DNA of 8,736 nt from a virus (lineage: Duplodnaviria; Heunggongvirae; Uroviricota; Caudoviricetes), in the IMG/VR virus record IMGVR_UViG_2778261227_000012; one strand, 5' to 3'. Positions 1,295 through 8,736 of this stretch are shown here, in pieces. A program made the translations under genes and the position numbers. The notes below the pieces were generated by a model, which was not told the DNA's origin, searched no databases, and worked only from the letters and a program-made list of their open reading frames with translations. How positions within the stretch are numbered: position 1 is the first letter of the stretch; each line of letters begins with the position of its first letter.

Positions 1295-1513
1295 GTGGAG
1301 AAACATATGCTGAACCTCGATTGTGTTCCAATCTCAACTTATTGCAAAGAAACTGGCGAAACTCCTGAAGCAATAAACAAACGTGTACAGCGCGGTGTTT
1401 GGCGTGAAGGTGTTCAGGTTTTAAAGGTTGAAGGCGTTAAGGAGAGGTGGATTGATCTTAGTGAGGTTGCAAAATGGGCCAGACAAAACTGCTCAAACTA
1501 CCGCGCGGCGTAA
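1295..1513 (+). CDS. Excisionase-like / small DNA-binding recombination directionality factor candidate
   Basis: 72-aa ORF immediately upstream of and overlapping the integrase start (ATG 1474) by 40 nt, the typical xis-int arrangement; GGAG 8 nt upstream of ATG 1295; basic, Trp-containing pattern (RVQRGVWREG...ERWIDLSEVAKW) resembles Xis/AlpA-type winged-helix proteins. Assignment by context and pattern only. Confidence 0.45.
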   Translation: MEKHMLNLDCVPISTYCKETGETPEAINKRVQRGVWREGVQVLKVEGVKERWIDLSEVAKWARQNCSNYRAA

Positions 1514-2640
1514 CAATCAGGAAACACCGCTAGGGCGAAACGATCAATATAACTTTCACCTACAAAGGAGTTAAATGTCGTGAGCCTCTTTCCAATCTGG
1601 AAGTAACACCAAAGAACATTAAATACGCCGAGCGTACACTCGGCGAAATCCATAATAAGATCGAAAGGGGAACATTCATTTATGCAGAATATTTTCCCCG
1701 TTCTGCTCGTTTGAAAATTTTTGGTAATGCTGCTGCAGGCAAAACGGTAAAGATGTACCTGGACGAATATCTTGAAATCTGCGAAACAAGAAAACTTTCA
1801 CCCTCTACGATTGGTGGCTATAAAAAATGCCGTAGTGCGTTAGCCTCACTTCACATTTGCCCTGCAAGTGAATTAACACCAGCAATCCTGAAAGCGTGGA
1901 TTCAAAGCCAGAAAACGACCTTAAAAACAATTCGCAACCAGTTATCTTTCCTGCGGTCAGCACTTGATGAAGCCGTAACCGATGGGGTACTTCAAATTAA
2001 CCCCGTATCGTTGGTAACTGCTTCGCGCTACCAAAGTGATAAGTCAGAAGCAGAAAGCAGCTATGTGGTTGATCCGCTATCACCAGCAGAAGTTGATGCA
2101 TTACTAGCAGCAGCCGGAAACAAACAATGGGAAAATCTGTTCCGGTTCGCCATACATACAGGCCTGCGTAGTTCTGAATTATGTGCCCTACGATGGCATG
2201 ATATCGACTTTGTTGGAAAAACAGCCCATGTTCAGAGCGCAAGTGTTGTCGGAGTTATCAAAGGAACAAAGACAAAAGCCGGTACCCGTAAAGTTGAACT
2301 GACTGAAGAAGCAATGTTGGCGTTGATAAACCAGAAGCCATTTACATTCATGAAGGATGCTACTGTCTTTGAAGATCCAAAGACCAATAAACCCTGGGCA
2401 AGTGCTGATGCAATTAGGAAAAAAGCATGGGTGCCAACATTGCGAAAAGCAGGTATTCGTTACAGAAACCCATATCAAACCAGGCATACATTCGCCACCA
2501 GACATATCAGCCGGGGAGCAAACCTGTTTTGGCTTGCAGCTCAAATGGGGCATAAAGGGCCTGAGATGCTTTTCAGGCACTATGGCTCATATCTGAAGGA
2601 ATATGATGGACAAACAAGCTTGAAGAAGATAACAATATAA
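1474..2640 (+). pseudogene. Tyrosine recombinase (phage integrase with N-terminal arm-DNA-binding domain) interrupted by an in-frame amber codon TAG at 1531-1533 (codon 20)
   Basis: Frame 1 from ATG 1474 reads MGQTKLLKLPRGVTIRKHR-TAG-GETINITFTYKGVKCREPLSNLEVTPKNIKYAERTLGEIHNKIERGTFIYAEYFPRSAR..., the conserved N-terminal pattern of this integrase family (KLPxGVxIR...I.I.F.Y.G.RCRE.L...N.K.AE.....I..G.F.Y...FP.S), continuous across the stop. Downstream catalytic region looks intact (LRSSELCALRWHDIDF; RHTFATRH; MGHK; RHYGSYL with Tyr). The ORF-track start at 1711 is a TTG with no upstream ATG/GTG in frame. Confidence 0.6.
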
Positions 2641-2657
2641 TCCAAGCATGAAACTAT

Positions 2658-2676
2658 TGGCCACAATTTGTGGCCA
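2658..2676. promoter_or_regulatory. Perfect 9-bp inverted repeat TGGCCACAA-T-TTGTGGCCA followed by TTTT; candidate operator or weak terminator between the integrase and the ATPase gene
   Basis: Read directly; lies 18 nt after the integrase stop and 23 nt before ATG 2699; the 9-mer TGGCCACAA recurs at 4457-4465. Confidence 0.4.
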
Positions 2677-2698
2677 TTTTACGGAGCAAGATAGAAAC

Positions 2699-4432
2699 AT
2701 GGCAAATCAAATTACCAAACTAAAAAATATAAATGTTGTGAAGTTTCGCGGACTGAAAAATATAAACATCGAGTTTGGTTCTCGCCTAACTGTTATTTGT
2801 GGTAAAAATGGCACATCTAAATCCACAATTCTTGGCATTATCGCCCAAATATTTAGCTTTACAAAGGACTTTACCAAAAACCCTGAGACTGATTTAACAC
2901 AATATAAAACATTAACAAATGGCAGCTTCAAGTCAGCTTTCAGCGAACATTTTAGGCTTTCAGAACAATTTGATGTTCCTGGTTCAATGGACGTCAAAAT
3001 TAGTGTCTATGATGGTGCATCGAACAAACATCTTGAAAAACTAACATTAGGTTTATACAGCTACAGTGACAGAGATAAATCAAGGCCTGTAGTCAGGGGA
3101 AATGATTCAATACCGGAAAAAAACCAAAGTAGAAACGTTACTCATCCTGTTATTTTTTTAAGCTTAGCACGACTTCTTCCTATTACATTAAGGACTGATT
3201 ACTCAACACGGGATGTTCAGTACATCAATGAAAATTCTGATGAAATCAGAATGATGAGTAACCAACTCTTACTAAAAAACAATGGAAGCTCAGTAACAGC
3301 AACAAAAGGTACTATCGATTCAATGGTTGTCCATGGTGACAATTATGATCACCAATCAGTATCTGTTGGTGAAGATAATGTTGGACAATTAATCCAAGCA
3401 ATTTTTTCATTTAAAAGATTGAAGGAAACTTATTCTGATTATCATGGCGGAATATTGTTAATTGATGAAGCCGATGCAGGTCTTTTCCCTGCTGCACAGT
3501 TAGAGCTAATTAATATTCTAACTAAAGCAGCAAAACAATACGATCTGCAAATAATCATGACCTCGCACTCTCCATTAATAATAGAGGATATCTATAATCG
3601 TTCAAAACAAGATAGTGATAGCTTTAAAACAATATATCTTACAGACACATATGGAGATATTAAAACAAAGAATAATCTTTCATGGACAGATATCCACGCT
3701 GATTTACATGTTGAAACTGTAAAAATTAATGATGACATTTGTCTTCCAAAGGCAAATGTATATTTTGAAGACAAAGAAGGTTTCGACTTTTTCAAACAAT
3801 TGATAACAGATCGAAAAATAAATAAAATATTAAATCCATTAGGGAATATAAATATTAGCTGCTCTGCCATGCTTGACTTAATGGCAAGAAAAATACCAGA
3901 ATTTACAGCTAAAAGCTTGATCGTCTTAGACGGTGATGTTGTTCACGACAATAGTGCTAATGCAAAAAAAGCCAAAAAAGAAAAAAACTTATGTTTGCTT
4001 CCAAGCACCTTACCTCCAGACCAAATGATTTTTGAGTTTTTATATAATTTACCACCTGATGATGCATATTGGGAAAATAAAAATAAATTTACAAAAGCTG
4101 TTTTTATGAAAACAGCTAAAGACATAATTGCAACGCTAAAGATTGGTAACGCTCCGATTGATTTAAAAATCCTTATAGATAATTATAAAAAAGTTAACAA
4201 AAACCATGGCGGGATAGTTAGAAAACTGTTTAAAGATTTTGCACATACGACTCAATTTCAGGCCCAAGTAAAAGGGCGAGTTAAAGATAACCCATATCGA
4301 TATTGGGTCGAGAAAAATCCTGTGCAATCGGATAGCTTCAAGAATGAACTAATAAAGAGTCTTAAAGTTATTATGACAAGTGGACATGGTGTCGATTCTG
4401 CTACCATCTCATCATATCTGTCAGATAACTAA
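2699..4432 (+). CDS. OLD-family (overcoming lysogenization defect-like) nuclease: N-terminal ABC/AAA_21-type ATPase fused to C-terminal TOPRIM-like domain; candidate anti-phage defence protein
   Basis: Walker A LTVICGKNGTSKSTIL; Walker B GGILLIDEADAGLF; H-loop-like IIMTSHSP; C-terminal TOPRIM-like acidic motifs VYFEDKEGFD and SLIVLDGDVV (DxD). Start chosen at ATG 2699 (GGAG 13 nt upstream; N-terminus then matches the usual IxKLxIxNFRGxK lead-in), but ATG 2648 (ORF-track start) cannot be excluded. Gene is visibly AT-rich relative to flanks. Confidence 0.65.
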   Translation: MANQITKLKNINVVKFRGLKNINIEFGSRLTVICGKNGTSKSTILGIIAQIFSFTKDFTKNPETDLTQYKTLTNGSFKSAFSEHFRLSEQFDVPGSMDVKISVYDGASNKHLEKLTLGLYSYSDRDKSRPVVRGNDSIPEKNQSRNVTHPVIFLSLARLLPITLRTDYSTRDVQYINENSDEIRMMSNQLLLKNNGSSVTATKGTIDSMVVHGDNYDHQSVSVGEDNVGQLIQAIFSFKRLKETYSDYHGGILLIDEADAGLFPAAQLELINILTKAAKQYDLQIIMTSHSPLIIEDIYNRSKQDSDSFKTIYLTDTYGDIKTKNNLSWTDIHADLHVETVKINDDICLPKANVYFEDKEGFDFFKQLITDRKINKILNPLGNINISCSAMLDLMARKIPEFTAKSLIVLDGDVVHDNSANAKKAKKEKNLCLLPSTLPPDQMIFEFLYNLPPDDAYWENKNKFTKAVFMKTAKDIIATLKIGNAPIDLKILIDNYKKVNKNHGGIVRKLFKDFAHTTQFQAQVKGRVKDNPYRYWVEKNPVQSDSFKNELIKSLKVIMTSGHGVDSATISSYLSDN

Positions 4433-4440
4433 TTGATTAA

Positions 4441-4479
4441 AAAGGGCTTTATGTGATGGCCACAAAGCCCTTTTTTTGA
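4441..4479 (+). terminator. Rho-independent terminator: 10-bp stem AAAGGGCTTT/AAAGCCCTTT, 13-nt loop, T6 tail
   Basis: Read directly; lies 9 nt after the ATPase stop; the loop contains TGGCCACAA. Confidence 0.6.
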
Positions 4480-4511
4480 TATACTTTAGATCTGACATTT
4501 AGAGGTATCAT

Positions 4512-5411
4512 ATGCGTTTTAACACCCCACTTCGCTATCCTGGCGGTAAAGGCAAGCTTGCAAATTTCATGCTTCGGCTTATTGAAGAAAATAATCTTTC
4601 GCCTATACATTATGCCGAACCATATGCTGGGGGTGCTGGTTTAGCATTGAAACTGTTACATCTAAATGCAGCTGAAAAAATCATCCTTAATGATATTAAT
4701 ATTTCTGTTTATGCTTTTTGGCACAGTGTATTAAATCATGCAGATCAATTATGTTCTTTAATTGAAAGAACTGAAGTTACAATGGATGAATGGTTTAGGC
4801 AGAAAGATATAATTAATAATCCTAAAGACCATGATCTTTTAACAATTGGTTTCTCAACCTTTTTTCTCAATAGAACAAATCGTTCTGGAATATTAAAAGG
4901 TGGAGTAATTGGCGGTAAAAATCAAGAAGGGAAATGGAAGCTTGACGCTCGCTATAATAAGAGTGATTTGATTTCTCGAATCCATAAAATATCAGAAAAT
5001 CGTCACAGAATAGATTTATATAACATGGATGCAATTGATTTCATTAAAAAAATAGTTATTCAATTGCCACAAAACTCATTAACATATTTGGATCCACCTT
5101 ATTACATAAAAGGTAAAGGTTTATATATCAACCATTATAATCATGATGATCATGTTAGGGTTGCAAAAGTCGTACAGAATAATATTAAAACACCTTGGAT
5201 TGTTTCTTACGATAACACTCCTGAGATCCAAGCTATGTATAAGACATCATCATTAGTATATGGAATAAACTACAGTGCTCAAGATCGGTACAAAGGATCT
5301 GAGGTAATGTTCTTCAGTGAACGATTGAAAATCTTTAAAACAGATGATCCAACTAAGGTAAAAGCGCCTGTATTTAAAAGAGGATGTGTTGACGACCACA
5401 TCCAGACATAA
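4512..5411 (+). CDS. Dam-family (D12 class, alpha-type) DNA N6-adenine methyltransferase
   Basis: Motifs in the order of Dam-family enzymes: RYPGGKGKL (Dam WAGGK-like), EPYAGGAG (AdoMet-binding FxGxG), FFLNRTNRSG (Dam LNRxGxNG-like), LTYLDPPYY (catalytic DPPY); AGAGG RBS 7 nt upstream of ATG; AT-rich. Confidence 0.8.
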   Translation: MRFNTPLRYPGGKGKLANFMLRLIEENNLSPIHYAEPYAGGAGLALKLLHLNAAEKIILNDINISVYAFWHSVLNHADQLCSLIERTEVTMDEWFRQKDIINNPKDHDLLTIGFSTFFLNRTNRSGILKGGVIGGKNQEGKWKLDARYNKSDLISRIHKISENRHRIDLYNMDAIDFIKKIVIQLPQNSLTYLDPPYYIKGKGLYINHYNHDDHVRVAKVVQNNIKTPWIVSYDNTPEIQAMYKTSSLVYGINYSAQDRYKGSEVMFFSERLKIFKTDDPTKVKAPVFKRGCVDDHIQT

Positions 5412-5484
5412 AAGGAGCCGCAAAAGATCCGCAGAATAAAATGGTTAGTATTAATCGTTTTATTTCAGCTAATTATAAAAATAC

Positions 5485-5516
5485 GGACTCGGGTTCAACT
5501 CCCGCCAGCTCCACCA
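5485..5516 (+). other. ssrA: 3'-terminal fragment of tmRNA (ssrA): T-arm plus acceptor 3' strand and CCA; attachment-site (att) remnant marking a mobile-element boundary
   Basis: GGACTCGGGTTCAACTCCCGCCAGCTCCACCA: T-loop TTCAACT, 3' acceptor strand CAGCTCC with the U that forms the G3:U70 alanine-identity wobble, discriminator A, CCA. Upstream sequence is AT-rich and not tmRNA-like, so this is a partial copy, not a complete gene. One T-stem position appears unpaired. Confidence 0.7.
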
Positions 5517-5563
5517 AAATTCTCCATCGGTGATTACCAGAGTCATCCGATGAAGTCCTAAGA

Positions 5564-5595
5564 GCCCGCACGGCGCAAGCCCTGCGGGCTTTTTT
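5564..5595 (+). terminator. GC-rich hairpin (GCCCGCA...TGCGGGC) followed by T6; intrinsic terminator downstream of the tmRNA 3' end
   Basis: Read directly; position matches where a native ssrA terminator would sit. Confidence 0.55.
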
Positions 5596-5649
5596 GTGCC
5601 CTCAATTTGTCCCGCGAAGTCCGAAGAAAACTAATTAAATCCGATCCTT

Positions 5650-5703
5650 TTAGGCACCTTGTTAGGCACCTCATAAAGCTTTATTGTTTTTTGAGGTGCC
5701 TAA
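5650..5703. repeat. Three copies of a 10-bp motif (TTAGGCACCT direct x2 at 5650-5659 and 5662-5671; inverted AGGTGCCTAA at 5694-5703) just upstream of the P4-type integrase start; candidate integrase/regulator binding sites
   Basis: Read directly; 19-28 nt upstream of ATG 5722. Confidence 0.35.
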
Positions 5704-5721
5704 AACTATGGAAACCCGGCA

Positions 5722-6777
5722 ATGGCAAGACAAACCAAACCTCTATCCGTTAAAGAAATAGAATCAGCCAAACCCAAGGAGGCGGACTACGTTCTCTATG
5801 ATGGCGATGGCCTTGAGCTACTCATTAAATCCAGCGGGAGTAAAATCTGGCAGTTTCGCTACATTCGCCCTGTCACCAAGAAACGAGCAAAGAAGAGCAT
5901 AGGCTCCTACCCGTCAGTTACCCTTGCCGATGCCAGAAACTACCGTGCAGAGTCCCGCTCACTACTGGCTAAACAGATCGATCCGCAGGAACATCAGCAA
6001 GAACAATTGCGCAGTTCGCTGGAAGCCAAAACCAACACTTTCCAACTCGTAGCTGAACGTTGGTGGAATGTGAAGAAAGCCAGTGTGACAGAGGACTATG
6101 CGGAAGATATCTGGCGCTCTCTTGAAAGAGACGTCTTTCCTGCGATTGGCGACGTTAGCGTTACAGATATTAAAGCTCATACACTGGTTCAGGCCGTACA
6201 ACCGGTTCAGGCCAGAGGAGCACTGGAAACTGTTCGTCGCCTGTGCCAACGTATTAATGAGGTCATGATCTATGCCCAGAACACAGGGCTGATTGATGCT
6301 GTTCCCAGCGTTAATATCGGTAAAGCCTTCGAGAAGCCTCAGAAAAAGAACATGCCCAGCATTCGACCGGATCAGCTACCTCAGTTAATGCAGACGATGC
6401 GAACAGCCAGCATTAGCCTTTCCACACGCTGCCTGTTCATGTGGCAACTTCTTACTATTACCCGCCCTGCCGAAGCGGCTGAAGCTCTCTGGGAAGAGGT
6501 AGACATAGAAGCGCGAGAGTGGAAGATTCCTGCAGCACGCATGAAAATGAACCGCGACCATACTGTTCCATTGTCAGATGAAGCAATTGCGATACTAGAG
6601 ATGATGAAGCCGTTAAGTGGAAATCGAGAATTTATCTTTCCCAGCCGCATCAAGCCAAACCAGCCGATGAACAGTCAGACCGTAAACGCATCGCTAAAAC
6701 GCGCAGGTTTTGGTGGGGTGCTCGTTTCACACGGCCTGCGATCTATCGCCAGTACAGCCCTTAATGAGCAGGGATGA
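5722..6777 (+). pseudogene. P4/CP4-57 (IntA)-type tyrosine integrase, C-terminally truncated (ends ...SHGLRSIASTALNEQG, before the catalytic tyrosine)
   Basis: N-terminus MARQTKPLSVKEIESAKPKEADYVLYDGDGLELLIKSSGSKIWQFRY is the hallmark of P4-family integrases that follow tRNA/tmRNA genes; the H-G-L-R box is present, but the ORF stops before the conserved downstream segment with the second His and active-site Tyr. No other frame continues the homology, so this is truncation or replacement, not a simple frameshift. Confidence 0.6.
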
Positions 6778-6852
6778 TGCGCCGCGCGATAAACGTACCT
6801 ATTTCCGTGAGATAAATTACATCGCCGCGGCATTTCAATATCAGAAAAAGAA

Positions 6853-7425
6853 TTACAAATCAGCTTGAGTTTGAAGTTCCTCTACAGGGTGATAACGATA
6901 AATCGTCGATATACCGATATCGTAAATAATTGCCAACTGTTTCCTGCTATAGCCATTTTTGATCAGCCTTGCTATTTGTTCATGTTGCTCTTTTGTCAGT
7001 TTCGGACGACGTCCACCAATACGCCCCTGTGCACGTGCTGCTTCAAGTCCGGCCAGTGTTCGTTCAACTATTAATTCACGCTCCATTTCCGCTAAAGCCC
7101 CCATGACGTGAAAAAAGAAACGTCCCATGGGTGTTGACGTATCAATGCTGTCTGTAAGACTACGGAAGTTAACCCCTTTTTCCCGCAGTTCCTCAATAAG
7201 AGTGATGAGGTGTTTCATGCTTCTGCCCAGCCTGTCCAGCTTCCAGACAACGAGCGTATCTCCTTCTGATAACGTTCTGAGCAGCTTTTTCAATCCCGGT
7301 CGGGCTGACTTTGTTCCGCTGATTTTATCCTCAAAAATCAGTTCACATCCTGCGCAGTTCAGTGCGTTTCGTTGTAAATCTGTATTCTGGTCATTTGTTG
7401 ACACACGAATGTAGCCAATTTGCAT
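6853..7425 (-). CDS. Serine recombinase, DNA invertase of the Hin/Gin/Pin/Cin family
   Basis: N-terminus MQIGYIRVSTNDQNTDLQRNAL with catalytic Ser in YIRVSTNDQ; conserved LVVWKLDRLGRS, GRFFFHVMGALAEMERELIVERT, C-terminal HTH (ISTIYRY). True start is the internal ATG at 7425-7423 (AAGAGGA RBS upstream on the minus strand); the 65-codon N-terminal extension in the ORF track is not family-like. Confidence 0.85.
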   Translation of the reverse strand: MQIGYIRVSTNDQNTDLQRNALNCAGCELIFEDKISGTKSARPGLKKLLRTLSEGDTLVVWKLDRLGRSMKHLITLIEELREKGVNFRSLTDSIDTSTPMGRFFFHVMGALAEMERELIVERTLAGLEAARAQGRIGGRRPKLTKEQHEQIARLIKNGYSRKQLAIIYDIGISTIYRYHPVEELQTQADL

Positions 7426-7477
7426 GAAAAATATCCTCTTTGTTTTGTTAAAAATACATAGCTGGTATAGGTGGGAG

Positions 7478-7503
7478 TTAAGACGAAAACGTTGGTTTGG
7501 GGG
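7478..7503. promoter_or_regulatory. Candidate invertase crossover site (AAACGTTGGTTT core, resembling the AAACC-NN-GGTTT core of hix/gix sites), overlapping the start of cassette 1 and lying about 55 bp upstream of the invertase start
   Basis: Sequence AGACGAAAACGTTGGTTTGGGGGAAGG; the same core recurs at the start of cassettes 2 and 3 (about 7962-7987 and 8562-8587). Half-site symmetry is imperfect; exact boundaries are uncertain. Confidence 0.3.
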
Positions 7504-7964
7504 AAGGCTCGGCGCTGCCCGTTGGTGTGCCTGTTCCGTGGCCCTCAGCCACACCACCAACGGGCTGGCTGAAATGTAACGGTGCAGCATTTTCTTCTGA
7601 AATGTATCCCAAACTGGCAAAAGCTTACCCCACCAATAAATTACCGGATTTACGGGGTGAATTTATTCGTGGCTGGGATGATGGGCGGGGAATTGATAAT
7701 AGACGCAACCTACTGTCTGCACAGTCTGACACTATTCAGAATATAGTTGGCACTTTTGGACGAACTCAGCTTTTTAAAGATGCTTTAAATTCAGGGCCAT
7801 TTAGTCAAACTGACTCTATATTATCAGTAGGCTTGCAACCAACTGAGAGTATTGAAGGATATGGCGCCTCTGTATGGACATTCGACGCCTCTCGCTCAGT
7901 TCGCACAGCATCTGAAACACGTCCTCGTAACATTGCGTTTAATTACATCGTAAGGGCGGCATAG
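7482..7964 (+). CDS. Tail-fibre C-terminal cassette 1 (phage tail collar domain + variable receptor-binding core + conserved ...ETRPRNIAFNYIVRAA end); promoterless, no ATG start
   Basis: Open in frame from 7482; conserved motifs PWPSATPPTGWLKCNGAAFSSEMYP...LPDLRGEFIRGWDDGRG (tail collar) and NIAFNYIVRAA (P2 H / T-even fibre-type C-terminus); no ATG or RBS, begins 56 nt from the divergent invertase start. Confidence 0.6.
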   Translation, partial: DENVGLGEGSALPVGVPVPWPSATPPTGWLKCNGAAFSSEMYPKLAKAYPTNKLPDLRGEFIRGWDDGRGIDNRRNLLSAQSDTIQNIVGTFGRTQLFKDALNSGPFSQTDSILSVGLQPTESIEGYGASVWTFDASRSVRTASETRPRNIAFNYIVRAA

Positions 7965-8565
7965 AAACGTTGGTTTGGGGGAAGGCTCTGCACTGCCCGT
8001 TGGTGTGCCTGTTCCGTGGCCCTCAGCCACACCGCCAACAGGGTGGCTGAAATGTAACGGCGCAGCATTTTCTTCTGAAATGTACCCCAATCTGGCACAG
8101 GCTTACCCCACGAATAAATTACCGGATTTACGCGGTGAATTTATCCGTGGCTGGGATGACGGACGTGGCGTGGATGCGTGGCGAACATTACTGAGTGCTC
8201 AGGATTTTGCGTTTGAAGATCATGCTCTGGGGCTACCTACCAATCAGGGATATGCAGGTATTGAGAAAGGTAGCACTGAAAATGATGTTTATGCCGCTTT
8301 CTCTGATGGCATGCACTATACAGGGAATGTAACCAGTAGCGGTCAATGGGATGATTATTCTCAGTCAAAAATTTATATCCGTAGTGATGGTAAGCCTGTC
8401 GGAAATAATATTGAGTTAGCTAACTCAAGTGAGGCTTTGCGTTCTTCTTTGCGTACTTATAGAGCCAGTACAGGATGGTATAACCCAGGACTAAACAAAC
8501 CTAAAACAGCTACAGAAACACGTCCGCGCAACGTTGCTTTTAATTACATCGTAAGAGCCGCATGA
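7954..8565 (+). CDS. Tail-fibre C-terminal cassette 2 (same conserved collar N-block and C-terminal block, different and longer variable core); promoterless
   Basis: Open in frame from 7954, overlapping the cassette 1 stop (7962-7964) by 11 nt in another frame; conserved first ~65 codons and last ~16 codons, divergent middle. Confidence 0.6.
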   Translation, partial: GRHRNVGLGEGSALPVGVPVPWPSATPPTGWLKCNGAAFSSEMYPNLAQAYPTNKLPDLRGEFIRGWDDGRGVDAWRTLLSAQDFAFEDHALGLPTNQGYAGIEKGSTENDVYAAFSDGMHYTGNVTSSGQWDDYSQSKIYIRSDGKPVGNNIELANSSEALRSSLRTYRASTGWYNPGLNKPKTATETRPRNVAFNYIVRAA

Positions 8566-8736
8566 AAACGTTGGTTTGGGGGAAGGCTCTGCACTGCCCG
8601 TTGGTGTGCCTGTTCCGTGGCCCTCAGCCACACCGTCAACAGGGTGGCTGAAATGTAACGGCGCAGCATTTTCTTCTGAAATGTACCCCAAACTGGCACA
8701 GGCTTACCCCACCAATAAATTACCGGATTTACGGGG
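8555..8736 (+). CDS. Tail-fibre C-terminal cassette 3, partial (runs off the window end); same conserved collar N-block
   Basis: Open in frame from 8555, overlapping the cassette 2 stop (8563-8565); sequence to 8736 repeats the conserved 5' block and mixes variants seen in copies 1 and 2. Confidence 0.55.

What the first reader, a model, noticed from the sequence alone, without database searches (positions are those of the whole stretch)
6700..6860. P4-type integrase truncated before its catalytic tyrosine, with the breakpoint next to the invertase locus
The integrase ORF ends at ...HGLRSIASTALNEQG; family members continue for about 50-60 more residues, including the second His and the active-site Tyr. 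No alternative frame continues the homology, so this is a deletion or replacement junction near 6775-6850, not a frameshift, and the invertase stop is at 6853. Inference: the invertase and tail-fibre block was joined to a decayed CP4-57-like island by an illegitimate or invertase-mediated rearrangement; the truncated integrase cannot excise the island.
Basis: partly seen in the sequence, partly recalled or inferred. Interest (0 to 1): 0.45.

Follow-up and report, generated by a model that had tools for sequence, protein, structure and literature searches.

The report
Mu-like prophage inserted into integrase gene
The island's integrase gene is cut short because a transposable (BcepMu-type, Mu-like) phage jumped into it, and the neighbouring invertase is simply the last gene at that phage's right end. 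This is an ordinary, well-understood kind of event.

Summary
ORF 5722-6777 encodes 351 aa of a P4-type integrase whose intact form is 413 aa. It is 100% identical up to base 6774/6775 and lacks the last 62 residues, which hold the second His and the catalytic Tyr. No frame of the window encodes the missing part.

The proposed mechanism does not hold. Base 6775 is the exact terminal nucleotide (5'-TGATGCGCCGCGCGATAAACG...) of the right end of a ~38 kb transposable prophage. The same terminus abuts six unrelated host sequences in other E. coli genomes, five of them annotated truncated genes (otsA, fepE, rlmI and others). It carries 6-bp target duplications in all three prophages where both ends were read. 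In those siblings the prophage has Mor, GemA, Gam, a MuB-like ATPase, an rve transposase about 69% identical to that of BcepMu, and a P2-like tail.

The first 20 bases match the BcepMu right end at 15 positions, with the same subterminal GNGATAAA repeats. The invertase and tail-fibre cassettes are this phage's own right-end module.

So the junction is a DDE transposition insertion, not a deletion or an invertase-mediated join. The missing 3' part of int is predicted to lie about 38 kb away, but I could not reach that junction. Already known kind; low interest.

The parts
5484..5516 (+). Copy of the last 33 nt of ssrA (tmRNA gene 3' end). It is the att core between an upstream ssrA-integrated island and the CP4-57-like island.
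   Evidence: Window 5484-6775 aligns with L005 9763-11054 at 99.9%. ARAGORN places the tmRNA gene at L005 9433-9795. No complete tmRNA gene is found in the window.
5722..6774 (+). Codons 1-351 of a P4-type (IntA/CP4-57-like) tyrosine integrase. It retains the arm-binding, central and most of the catalytic domain, including HxxR, and lacks the last 62 aa.
   Evidence: It is 100% identical to the intact 413-aa WP_000113815.1 up to this point.
6769..6774 (.). Predicted right-hand copy of the 6-bp target-site duplication (CAGGGA).
   Evidence: Inferred from 6-bp duplications in three sibling prophages: GCTGGA in otsA of strain M-17, ACAGGA in fepE of JNEC-KY180, AAAAGC in rlmI of A31. The second copy is outside the window and was not seen.
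6775..6852 (.). Right terminus of a BcepMu-like transposable prophage. It has a 5'-TG end and subterminal repeats GCGATAAA (6786-6793) and GAGATAAA (6809-6816). Bases 6775-6777 (TGA) supply the stop codon of the truncated integrase.
   Evidence: The terminus is identical next to six unrelated host flanks in other E. coli genomes. It matches the BcepMu right end at 15 of the first 20 nt, with the repeats at the same positions. It pairs as an imperfect inverted repeat with the left end of the M-17 prophage. P1-like phage-plasmid homology to the invertase module only starts at about 6849, so 6775-6848 is specific to the transposable prophage.
6853..7425 (-). Serine DNA invertase (Gin/Cin/Pin/Min type), 190 aa, transcribed toward the prophage end. 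It is the last gene of the prophage.
   Evidence: Pfam Resolvase (E = 1.7e-51) + HTH_7; gene call. It occupies the same position in sibling prophages.
7427..8736 (+). Array of alternative tail-fibre C-terminal cassettes (ORFs 7497-7964, 7975-8565, and about 8575 to the contig end). Each starts with a conserved 170-230 nt segment that probably contains the invertase crossover site. The contig ends in the third copy.
   Evidence: Direct repeat family D1 at 7427-7657, 7905-8135 and 8506-8736. Phage Tail Collar domain in the cassettes. Sibling prophages show differently ordered and oriented cassettes.

Best explanation
A BcepMu-like (Mu-like, DDE-transposase) temperate phage transposed into codon 351/352 of the P4-type integrase gene of an ssrA-linked CP4-57-like island. 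The window shows the island side (int codons 1-351) fused at base 6774|6775 to the phage's right terminus. That terminus is followed inward by the phage's own invertase and its invertible tail-fibre cassettes. The phage end supplies an immediate TGA stop, so the integrase product lacks the second His and the Tyr nucleophile and should be catalytically dead. The remaining 187 nt of int (62 codons plus stop) is predicted to lie intact beyond the phage's left end, about 38 kb further on, after a second copy of CAGGGA. Shown: the truncation, the exact junction, the identity of the right-hand sequence as a transposable-phage terminus, and the random-site, 6-bp-duplication behaviour of this phage family in other genomes. 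Inferred: that the full prophage and the int 3' remnant are present in this genome, and that the island can no longer excise by its own integrase.
For: (1) Identity to the intact int stops at 6774/6775. (2) From 6775 on, the sequence is 96-98% identical to the right end of prophages in complete E. coli genomes, and those matches begin at window 6772-6775. (3) In six such genomes the same terminus TGATGCGCCGCGCGATAAACG... abuts six unrelated host sequences. Five of these are annotated as truncated genes: otsA, wzz(fepE), a 4Fe-4S protein gene, a hypothetical gene next to hycI, and a methyltransferase gene whose other half is annotated rlmI. The sixth abuts an Ail/Lom family gene that is not annotated as truncated. 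(4) In M-17 the two halves of otsA flank a 38.3-kb prophage encoding Mor, gp16/GemA, Gam, an ExeA/MuB-like ATPase, an rve transposase, Mu-like head genes and a P2-like tail. The gene order is collinear with BcepMu. The transposase is 68.5% identical to that of BcepMu, 69.4% to phiE255 and 98% to Escherichia phage PhiKM. (5) 6-bp target duplications are present in all three prophages checked. (6) The left end occurs at full length in at least 118 complete genomes, next to many different host genes. (7) The window's terminus itself resembles the BcepMu right terminus (15/20, with the same G[C/A]GATAAA repeats at 12-19 and 36-43) and begins with the 5'-TG that PMC2628397 describes as characteristic of BcepMu-type elements. 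(8) The junction recurs in a separate assembly of SRR3957182.
Against: The other junction (phage left end + CAGGGA + TTTCCACCTGATG...) was not found. The window is an entire 8,736-bp draft contig (NLUL01000064.1 of GCA_002232775.1) that stops 1.96 kb into the prophage. Exact-pattern scans of viral, genome-representative and JGI metagenome collections gave no hits, and protein look-ups for the predicted remnant or junction ORFs did not find this genome. No complete E. coli genome carries this particular insertion. The completeness of the prophage and the fate of the int 3' end in this strain are therefore inferred. The transposase and MuB-like genes were seen only in sibling prophages, not in the window.
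Confidence: 0.88

Rival explanations
1. An invertase and tail-fibre block was joined to a decayed island by a deletion or replacement, through illegitimate or invertase-mediated recombination, and the int 3' end was lost.
For: The int 3' end is not in the window in any frame. An invertase lies 78 bp from the junction. A 15-nt near-repeat spanning the junction (6768-6782) matches 7672-7686 at 13/15.
Against: The junction coincides to the nucleotide with the terminus of a transposable prophage that is found at many unrelated loci with 6-bp target duplications. An illegitimate or invertase-mediated event would not land on that nucleotide except by chance. The repeated cassette-boundary sequence (the probable crossover site) occurs at about 7480, 7960 and 8566, not at 6775. 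The 13/15 match lies inside cassette coding sequence, and its right half is part of the invariant phage terminus, so it is a chance match.
Confidence: 0.03
2. Transposition into int happened as in the best explanation. A later rearrangement then separated the right end seen here from the int 3' remnant or removed it. Candidates are recombination between two copies of the prophage, an internal deletion, or replicative-transposition-associated deletion or inversion.
For: Some E. coli genomes carry more than one copy of these prophage ends, with left and right ends more than 1 Mb apart (2014C-3075). The rest of the prophage in this genome was not observed. Searches for the predicted left junction were empty.
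Against: The empty searches are uninformative, because none of the searchable DNA collections is known to hold the other contigs of this draft assembly. All three sibling prophages examined end-to-end are simple insertions.
Confidence: 0.07
3. The junction is an assembly chimera that joins two unrelated contigs.
For: The source is a short-read draft contig that ends in a repeat.
Against: The same join appears in the NCBI assembly and in the Logan assembly of SRR3957182, with 100% identity over 6,895 nt. A misjoin would not fall on the terminal nucleotide of a transposable element. No repeat is shared by the two sides at the junction.
Confidence: 0.02

Closest known systems
Burkholderia phages BcepMu and phiE255 (genus Bcepmuvirus) and their enterobacterial relatives, e.g. 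Escherichia phage PhiKM and Klebsiella phage KP12
   Same: 5'-TG terminus with subterminal G[C/A]GATAAA/T repeats. In sibling E. coli prophages, gene order is collinear: Mor, GemA, MuB-like ATPase and Tn552-type rve transposase facing the left end, then lysis, Mu-like head, P2-like tail and tail fibre, with an accessory gene at the right end. Transposase identity is 68-69% to BcepMu/phiE255 and 94-98% to KP12/PhiKM. Insertion sites are random.
   Different: BcepMu carries an acyltransferase at its right end. The E. coli element carries a serine invertase and a multi-cassette invertible tail-fibre region instead. Only the right-most 1.96 kb is present in the window. The right-end 706 nt found no megablast match in PhiKM or KP12.
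Bacteriophage Mu (G segment and gin at the right end; random transposition)
   Same: A transposable temperate phage that disrupts genes on insertion. An invertase gene and an invertible tail-fibre segment lie next to the right end. The ends are TG...CA. (Established knowledge of Mu.)
   Different: Mu makes 5-bp duplications, while this family shows 6 bp. The transposase is of the Tn552/IS1604 rve type rather than MuA-like (annotation; Pfam rve only). The early region is inverted relative to Mu. There is no mom gene, and the invertase stop codon is 78 bp from the end.
IntA (SlpA) of prophage CP4-57 and other P4-type integrases at ssrA
   Same: Same three-domain architecture and the same position next to the ssrA 3' end. 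About 82-85% nucleotide identity to genes annotated intA in the 3' region.
   Different: It is a distinct allele or paralogue (WP_000113815.1 family), and here it is truncated at codon 351.
Multiple-inversion systems of P1/p15B-type phage-plasmids (Cin/Min) and Pin of e14
   Same: The invertase and cassette module is 85-90% identical at DNA level to recombinase plus 'phage tail protein' arrays on ~95-kb E. coli phage-plasmids and on phages vB_EcoM-673R5/813R1.
   Different: That homology starts only at about window 6849. The 74 nt between there and the junction belong to the transposable-phage terminus.

Membership tests
P4-type (IntA/CP4-57-like) tyrosine integrase | Arm-DNA-binding N-terminal domain + central SAM-like domain + tyrosine-recombinase catalytic domain | tested here: met
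   PF13356 (E = 3e-21), PF22022 (E = 3e-24), PF00589 (E = 7e-28). PDB sequence hits to CP4-like and CPS-53 integrase N-terminal and central domains were obtained for the intact homologue.
P4-type (IntA/CP4-57-like) tyrosine integrase | Complete catalytic set R-K-HxxR-H/W-Y, including the nucleophilic Tyr | tested here: not met
   The window copy stops at G351, after HGLR (337-340). The PF00589 match ends at profile position 144/172, against 170/172 in the intact 413-aa protein. H363 and Y373 of the intact protein are missing. It is a family member by descent but a pseudogene by function.
P4-type (IntA/CP4-57-like) tyrosine integrase | Gene adjacent to the att site at a tRNA or tmRNA gene 3' end | tested here: met
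   A 33-nt ssrA 3' copy lies at 5484-5516, 205 nt upstream of the ATG. In other genomes the same int directly follows ssrA.
BcepMu-like transposable phage (right end) | 5'-TG...CA-3' termini with imperfect terminal inverted repeats and repeated transposase-binding motifs | tested here: met
   The window terminus is TGATGCGCCGCGCGATAAACG..., with GNGATAAA at positions 12-19 and 35-42. It matches the BcepMu right end at 15/20, and it pairs with the sibling left end through TGAT, G[AC]GATAAA and GTGAGATAAAT. PMC2628397 describes TG...CA as characteristic.
BcepMu-like transposable phage (right end) | Insertion at essentially random sites with a short target-site duplication | tested here: inconclusive
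   Met in siblings: seven different flanks counting the window and 6-bp duplications in three of three. For the window's own insertion only one junction is visible, and the second copy of CAGGGA could not be retrieved.
BcepMu-like transposable phage (right end) | Encodes an rve (Tn552-type) transposase, a MuB-like ATPase, Mor and GemA | not testable with these tools
   These genes lie about 26-37 kb beyond the contig end. They are present in sibling prophages that share the same right end at 96-98% identity.
Serine DNA invertase (Gin/Hin/Cin/Pin/Min) | N-terminal resolvase catalytic domain + C-terminal HTH_7, about 190 aa, next to invertible tail-fibre segments | tested here: met
   PF00239 (E = 1.7e-51), PF02796 (E = 1.3e-13). 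It is adjacent to repeated cassettes, and cassette order and orientation differ between sibling prophages.

The most novel reading that the evidence does not exclude
Codon 351/352 of this integrase family may be a recurrent break or insertion point rather than a random hit. Besides the phage junction, contigs from four other Logan samples and three S. flexneri assemblies (which carry a diverged allele) end within 1-2 nt of the same position. Exact truncations at nine neighbouring lengths are absent from a 15-billion-protein collection. If real, the site could be a hotspot for DDE transposases or the target of an unrecognised site-specific element.
Probability: 0.1. Interest if true: 0.35.

Novelty: already known. 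Interest (0 to 1): 0.12.

Why it matters
The main value is in correct annotation. The truncated integrase and the 'invertase locus' are not two halves of an odd rearrangement. They are the boundary between a host island and a transposable prophage. Recognising the 5'-TGATGCGCC... terminus lets annotators delimit these BcepMu-like prophages in E. coli, and it explains the genes flagged 'incomplete; partial in the middle of a contig' beside them. Biologically, the insertion probably locks the ssrA island in place by killing its integrase. That is a small example of one mobile element immobilising another. The same integrase is also commonly inactivated by an IS3-family insertion nine codons upstream, so loss of this integrase is recurrent.

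Tried and rejected
(1) Looking for the other junction in the source genome.
- A homology search with the 62-aa int tail returned only short fragments.
- The predicted 50-aa remnant MDKNEV...LVG exists in the collection, but its only contig is a metagenome read-through with a GAG>TAG error, not a phage junction.
- P0128 is a frameshifted int in another assembly.
- P0036 is a different allele next to a retron-like gene.
- Exact look-ups of predicted junction-spanning ORFs were negative.
- Exact DNA patterns for both junctions found nothing in viral contigs. The left junction found nothing in genome representatives or JGI metagenomes.

It was replaced by exact cluster look-ups.

(3) Explaining the recurrent contig ends at codon 351.
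- The 401-nt stretch spanning the site, which includes the int 3' end, occurs only once per complete genome, so the int 3' end is not an intragenomic repeat.
- A mosaic allele (LR14) diverges about 6 nt upstream of the site, which does not fit the contig ends.
- No complete E. coli genome listed shows a break at that position.
- This is left unexplained.

(4) Invertase-mediated joining: no crossover-site repeat at the junction.

(5) A frameshift or sequencing error restoring the reading frame: no C-terminal homology in any frame of the window.

Full report
**Observation**

The window is the complete 8,736-bp draft contig NLUL01000064.1 of assembly GCA_002232775.1. ORF 5722-6777 (+) encodes 351 aa ending ...HGLRSIASTALNEQG*. 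It has the P4-type integrase architecture Arm-DNA-bind_3, Phage_int_M and Phage_integrase. The catalytic-domain match stops at profile position 144 of 172.

The closest intact gene is WP_000113815.1 in E. coli WP5-W18-ESBL-11 (locus L001). It is 413 aa and covers profile positions 3-170. Window 5400-6775 is 100% identical to that genome, and the sequences diverge completely after 6774/6775.

The lost 62 residues (FPPDVIEAALAHVDKNEVRRAYNRSDY...) include the positions that correspond to the second His and the nucleophilic Tyr in tyrosine recombinases. That assignment rests on established knowledge of the motif spacing. The HxxR box is retained. tblastn of the 62-aa tail finds nothing in any frame of the window.

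**What lies to the right of the breakpoint**

Searching window 6700-8736 against complete E. coli genomes gave many chromosomal matches that begin at window 6772-6775 with 96-98% identity. Six were opened. In five, the sequence is flanked by a host gene annotated as truncated: otsA, wzz(fepE), a 4Fe-4S protein gene, a hypothetical gene next to hycI, and a methyltransferase gene later identified as rlmI. In the sixth it abuts an Ail/Lom family gene that is not annotated as truncated. Lining up the seven junctions, counting the window, shows an invariant terminus TGATGCGCCGCGCGATAAACGTACC... preceded by seven unrelated sequences. Base T6775 is therefore the end of a mobile element.

In strain M-17 the two halves of otsA lie 38.3 kb apart. 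The DNA between them encodes Mor, gp16/GemA, Gam, an ExeA-type (MuB-like) AAA ATPase, an rve-domain transposase, a repressor region, lysis genes, Mu-like head genes (DUF935 portal, Mu F and G homologues), a P2-like contractile tail, tail-fibre cassettes and the invertase. This order is collinear with Burkholderia phage BcepMu. The transposase is 68.5% identical to that of BcepMu, 69.4% to phiE255, and 94-98% to Klebsiella phage KP12 and Escherichia phage PhiKM.

The left end of this prophage is found at full length in at least 118 complete E. coli genomes, next to many different host genes. Both ends were read in three prophages, and each is flanked by a 6-bp direct duplication of target DNA:
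- GCTGGA in otsA of M-17
- ACAGGA in fepE of JNEC-KY180
- AAAAGC in rlmI of A31

**Evidence inside the window itself**

Read from the outside in, the 78 nt between the junction and the invertase stop codon begin with 5'-TG. They carry GCGATAAA at positions 12-19 and GAGATAAA at 35-42. The left end of the M-17 prophage aligns with them without gaps through TGAT, G[AC]GATAAA and GTGAGATAAAT. The deposited BcepMu right end (TGAAGCGCGGCGCGATATTT...GCGCGATAAAT) matches the window terminus at 15 of the first 20 positions, with the repeats at the same offsets. The KS10 paper states that 5'-TG...CA-3' termini are characteristic of BcepMu-type elements with an rve transposase (PMC2628397).

Homology to the invertase and cassette modules of P1-like phage-plasmids starts only at about 6849. 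So 6775-6848 is specific to the transposable prophage.

**Mechanism**

The best-supported reading is that a BcepMu-like transposable phage inserted by DDE transposition into codon 351/352 of the island integrase. The invertase (6853-7425, minus strand) and the tail-fibre cassettes (7427-8736) are the phage's own right-end module, analogous to gin and the G segment of Mu. The first three bases of the phage end (TGA) terminate the integrase reading frame.

By analogy with the three sibling insertions, the target hexamer CAGGGA (6769-6774) should be repeated at the far end of the prophage, followed by TTTCCACCTGATG... and the remaining 62 codons of int. Without its Tyr nucleophile, the 351-aa product should be unable to excise the island (inference). 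Among the collections searched, this particular insertion was found only in this assembly and in the Logan assembly of SRR3957182. The Logan contig is identical over 6,895 nt and may come from the same isolate. It looks like a recent, lineage-private event.

**What was not shown**

The contig ends 1.96 kb into the prophage, in the third copy of the cassette repeat. I could not reach the other contigs of this assembly. Pattern scans and protein look-ups for the predicted left junction were empty or led to unrelated sequences. A later rearrangement that removed or displaced the int 3' end therefore cannot be excluded (about 7%). No invertase crossover repeat is present at the junction. I give that model about 3%. 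An assembly chimera is unlikely for the same reason, and because two assemblies agree.

**Comparison with known systems and verdict**

This works like, and by the terminal sequence belongs with, the BcepMu group of Mu-like phages. Enterobacterial relatives are already deposited (PhiKM, KP12), and 'phiE255-like' Bcepmuvirus prophages with an invertase have been noted in E. coli ST131 (bioRxiv 10.1101/2022.05.07.487787). Gene disruption by transposable phages is textbook biology. The finding is real but ordinary. It corrects an annotation and an inferred mechanism rather than revealing something new.

**Side observations**

- The window holds a tandem arrangement at ssrA. An upstream island ends with its own integrase, an AAA ATPase and a methyltransferase, then a 33-nt ssrA 3' copy (5484-5516), then the CP4-57-like int.
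- The upstream integrase also carries a premature stop (CAG>TAG at 1531) relative to the 388-aa WP_059334296.1. Neither integrase in the window is intact.
- The methyltransferase matches PADLOC model PD-Lambda-5_B over its full length (E = 5e-124).
- A far more common truncated allele of the same int (347 aa, WP_272716052.1) results from an IS3-family insertion nine codons upstream.
- Contigs from four other samples and three S. flexneri assemblies end within 1-2 nt of the same codon 351, while nine neighbouring truncation lengths are absent from the protein collection. I could not explain this.

Noticed in passing
window 1474-2640 (stop codon at 1531-1533): The upstream island's integrase (388 aa, WP_059334296.1, in L001) carries a premature stop at codon 20 here (CAG>TAG at base 1531). 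The longest remaining ORF (1711-2640) lacks the N-terminal arm-binding domain, so neither integrase in the window is intact.
   Followed up: partly
window 2648-5411: An AAA_15/AAA_21 ATPase (594 aa) and a D12-class methyltransferase (299 aa) sit between the upstream integrase and the ssrA repeat. The methyltransferase matches PADLOC PD-Lambda-5_B over its full length (E = 5e-124). The ATPase's best PADLOC hits are generic PtuA/AriA/GajA-type ATPase models, and PD-Lambda-5_A was not among the top 25 shown. This is probably a PD-Lambda-5-type defence pair.
   Followed up: partly
window 7427-8736: There are three direct copies of a conserved 170-230 nt segment (7427-7657, 7905-8135, 8506-8736). 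Each opens a different tail-fibre C-terminal cassette with a Collar domain, and no tail-fibre assembly gene lies between them. The contig and the Logan contig both break in these repeats. Cassette number, order and orientation differ among sibling prophages, which fits a multi-site inversion system like Min of p15B.
   Followed up: partly
codon 351/352 of int (window 6772-6777); loci L005, L008, L009, L010, L019: Contigs from four other Logan samples end at ...GGGAT or ...GGGATT, and three S. flexneri assemblies with a diverged allele end at ...GGCTT. These are the same position as the phage junction, but they are not the phage junction. Exact truncations of 343, 346, 348, 349, 350, 352, 353, 355 and 358 aa are absent from the collection. 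The stretch spanning the site, including the int 3' end, occurs only once per complete E. coli genome. Unexplained.
   Followed up: partly
loci L020-L023 (same int family, codon ~343): A common truncated allele of the same integrase (347 aa...HGLRSIDLTQQ*, WP_272716052.1; listed in 230 blocks of the collection) is produced by an IS3-family element inserted nine codons upstream of the phage insertion site. Inactivation of this integrase by mobile elements is recurrent.
   Followed up: partly
locus L024 (E. coli LR14) versus L001, around the site: The int allele of LR14 is nearly identical to the window's allele up to about 6 nt before the junction. It then switches to a diverged sequence with many synonymous changes (GAACAAGGC... 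instead of GAGCAGGGA...). This indicates a recombination (mosaic) boundary within int alleles close to the insertion site.
   Followed up: no
locus L012 (Logan SRR35637477_102): A 50-aa C-terminal remnant of a related integrase allele (from about codon 357; the called product starts at the GTG of codon 364) sits at a contig start. Unrelated sequence lies upstream of it, and a gene with a Retron_Ec48_antiviral Pfam hit lies about 2 kb downstream.
   Followed up: no
E. coli 2014C-3075 (NZ_CP027447.1) and JB2 (NZ_CP182203.1): The best-matching left and right ends of the BcepMu-like prophage lie more than 1 Mb apart in these genomes, with several copies of end or cassette sequences. This suggests multiple prophage copies or rearrangements between them.
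   Followed up: no
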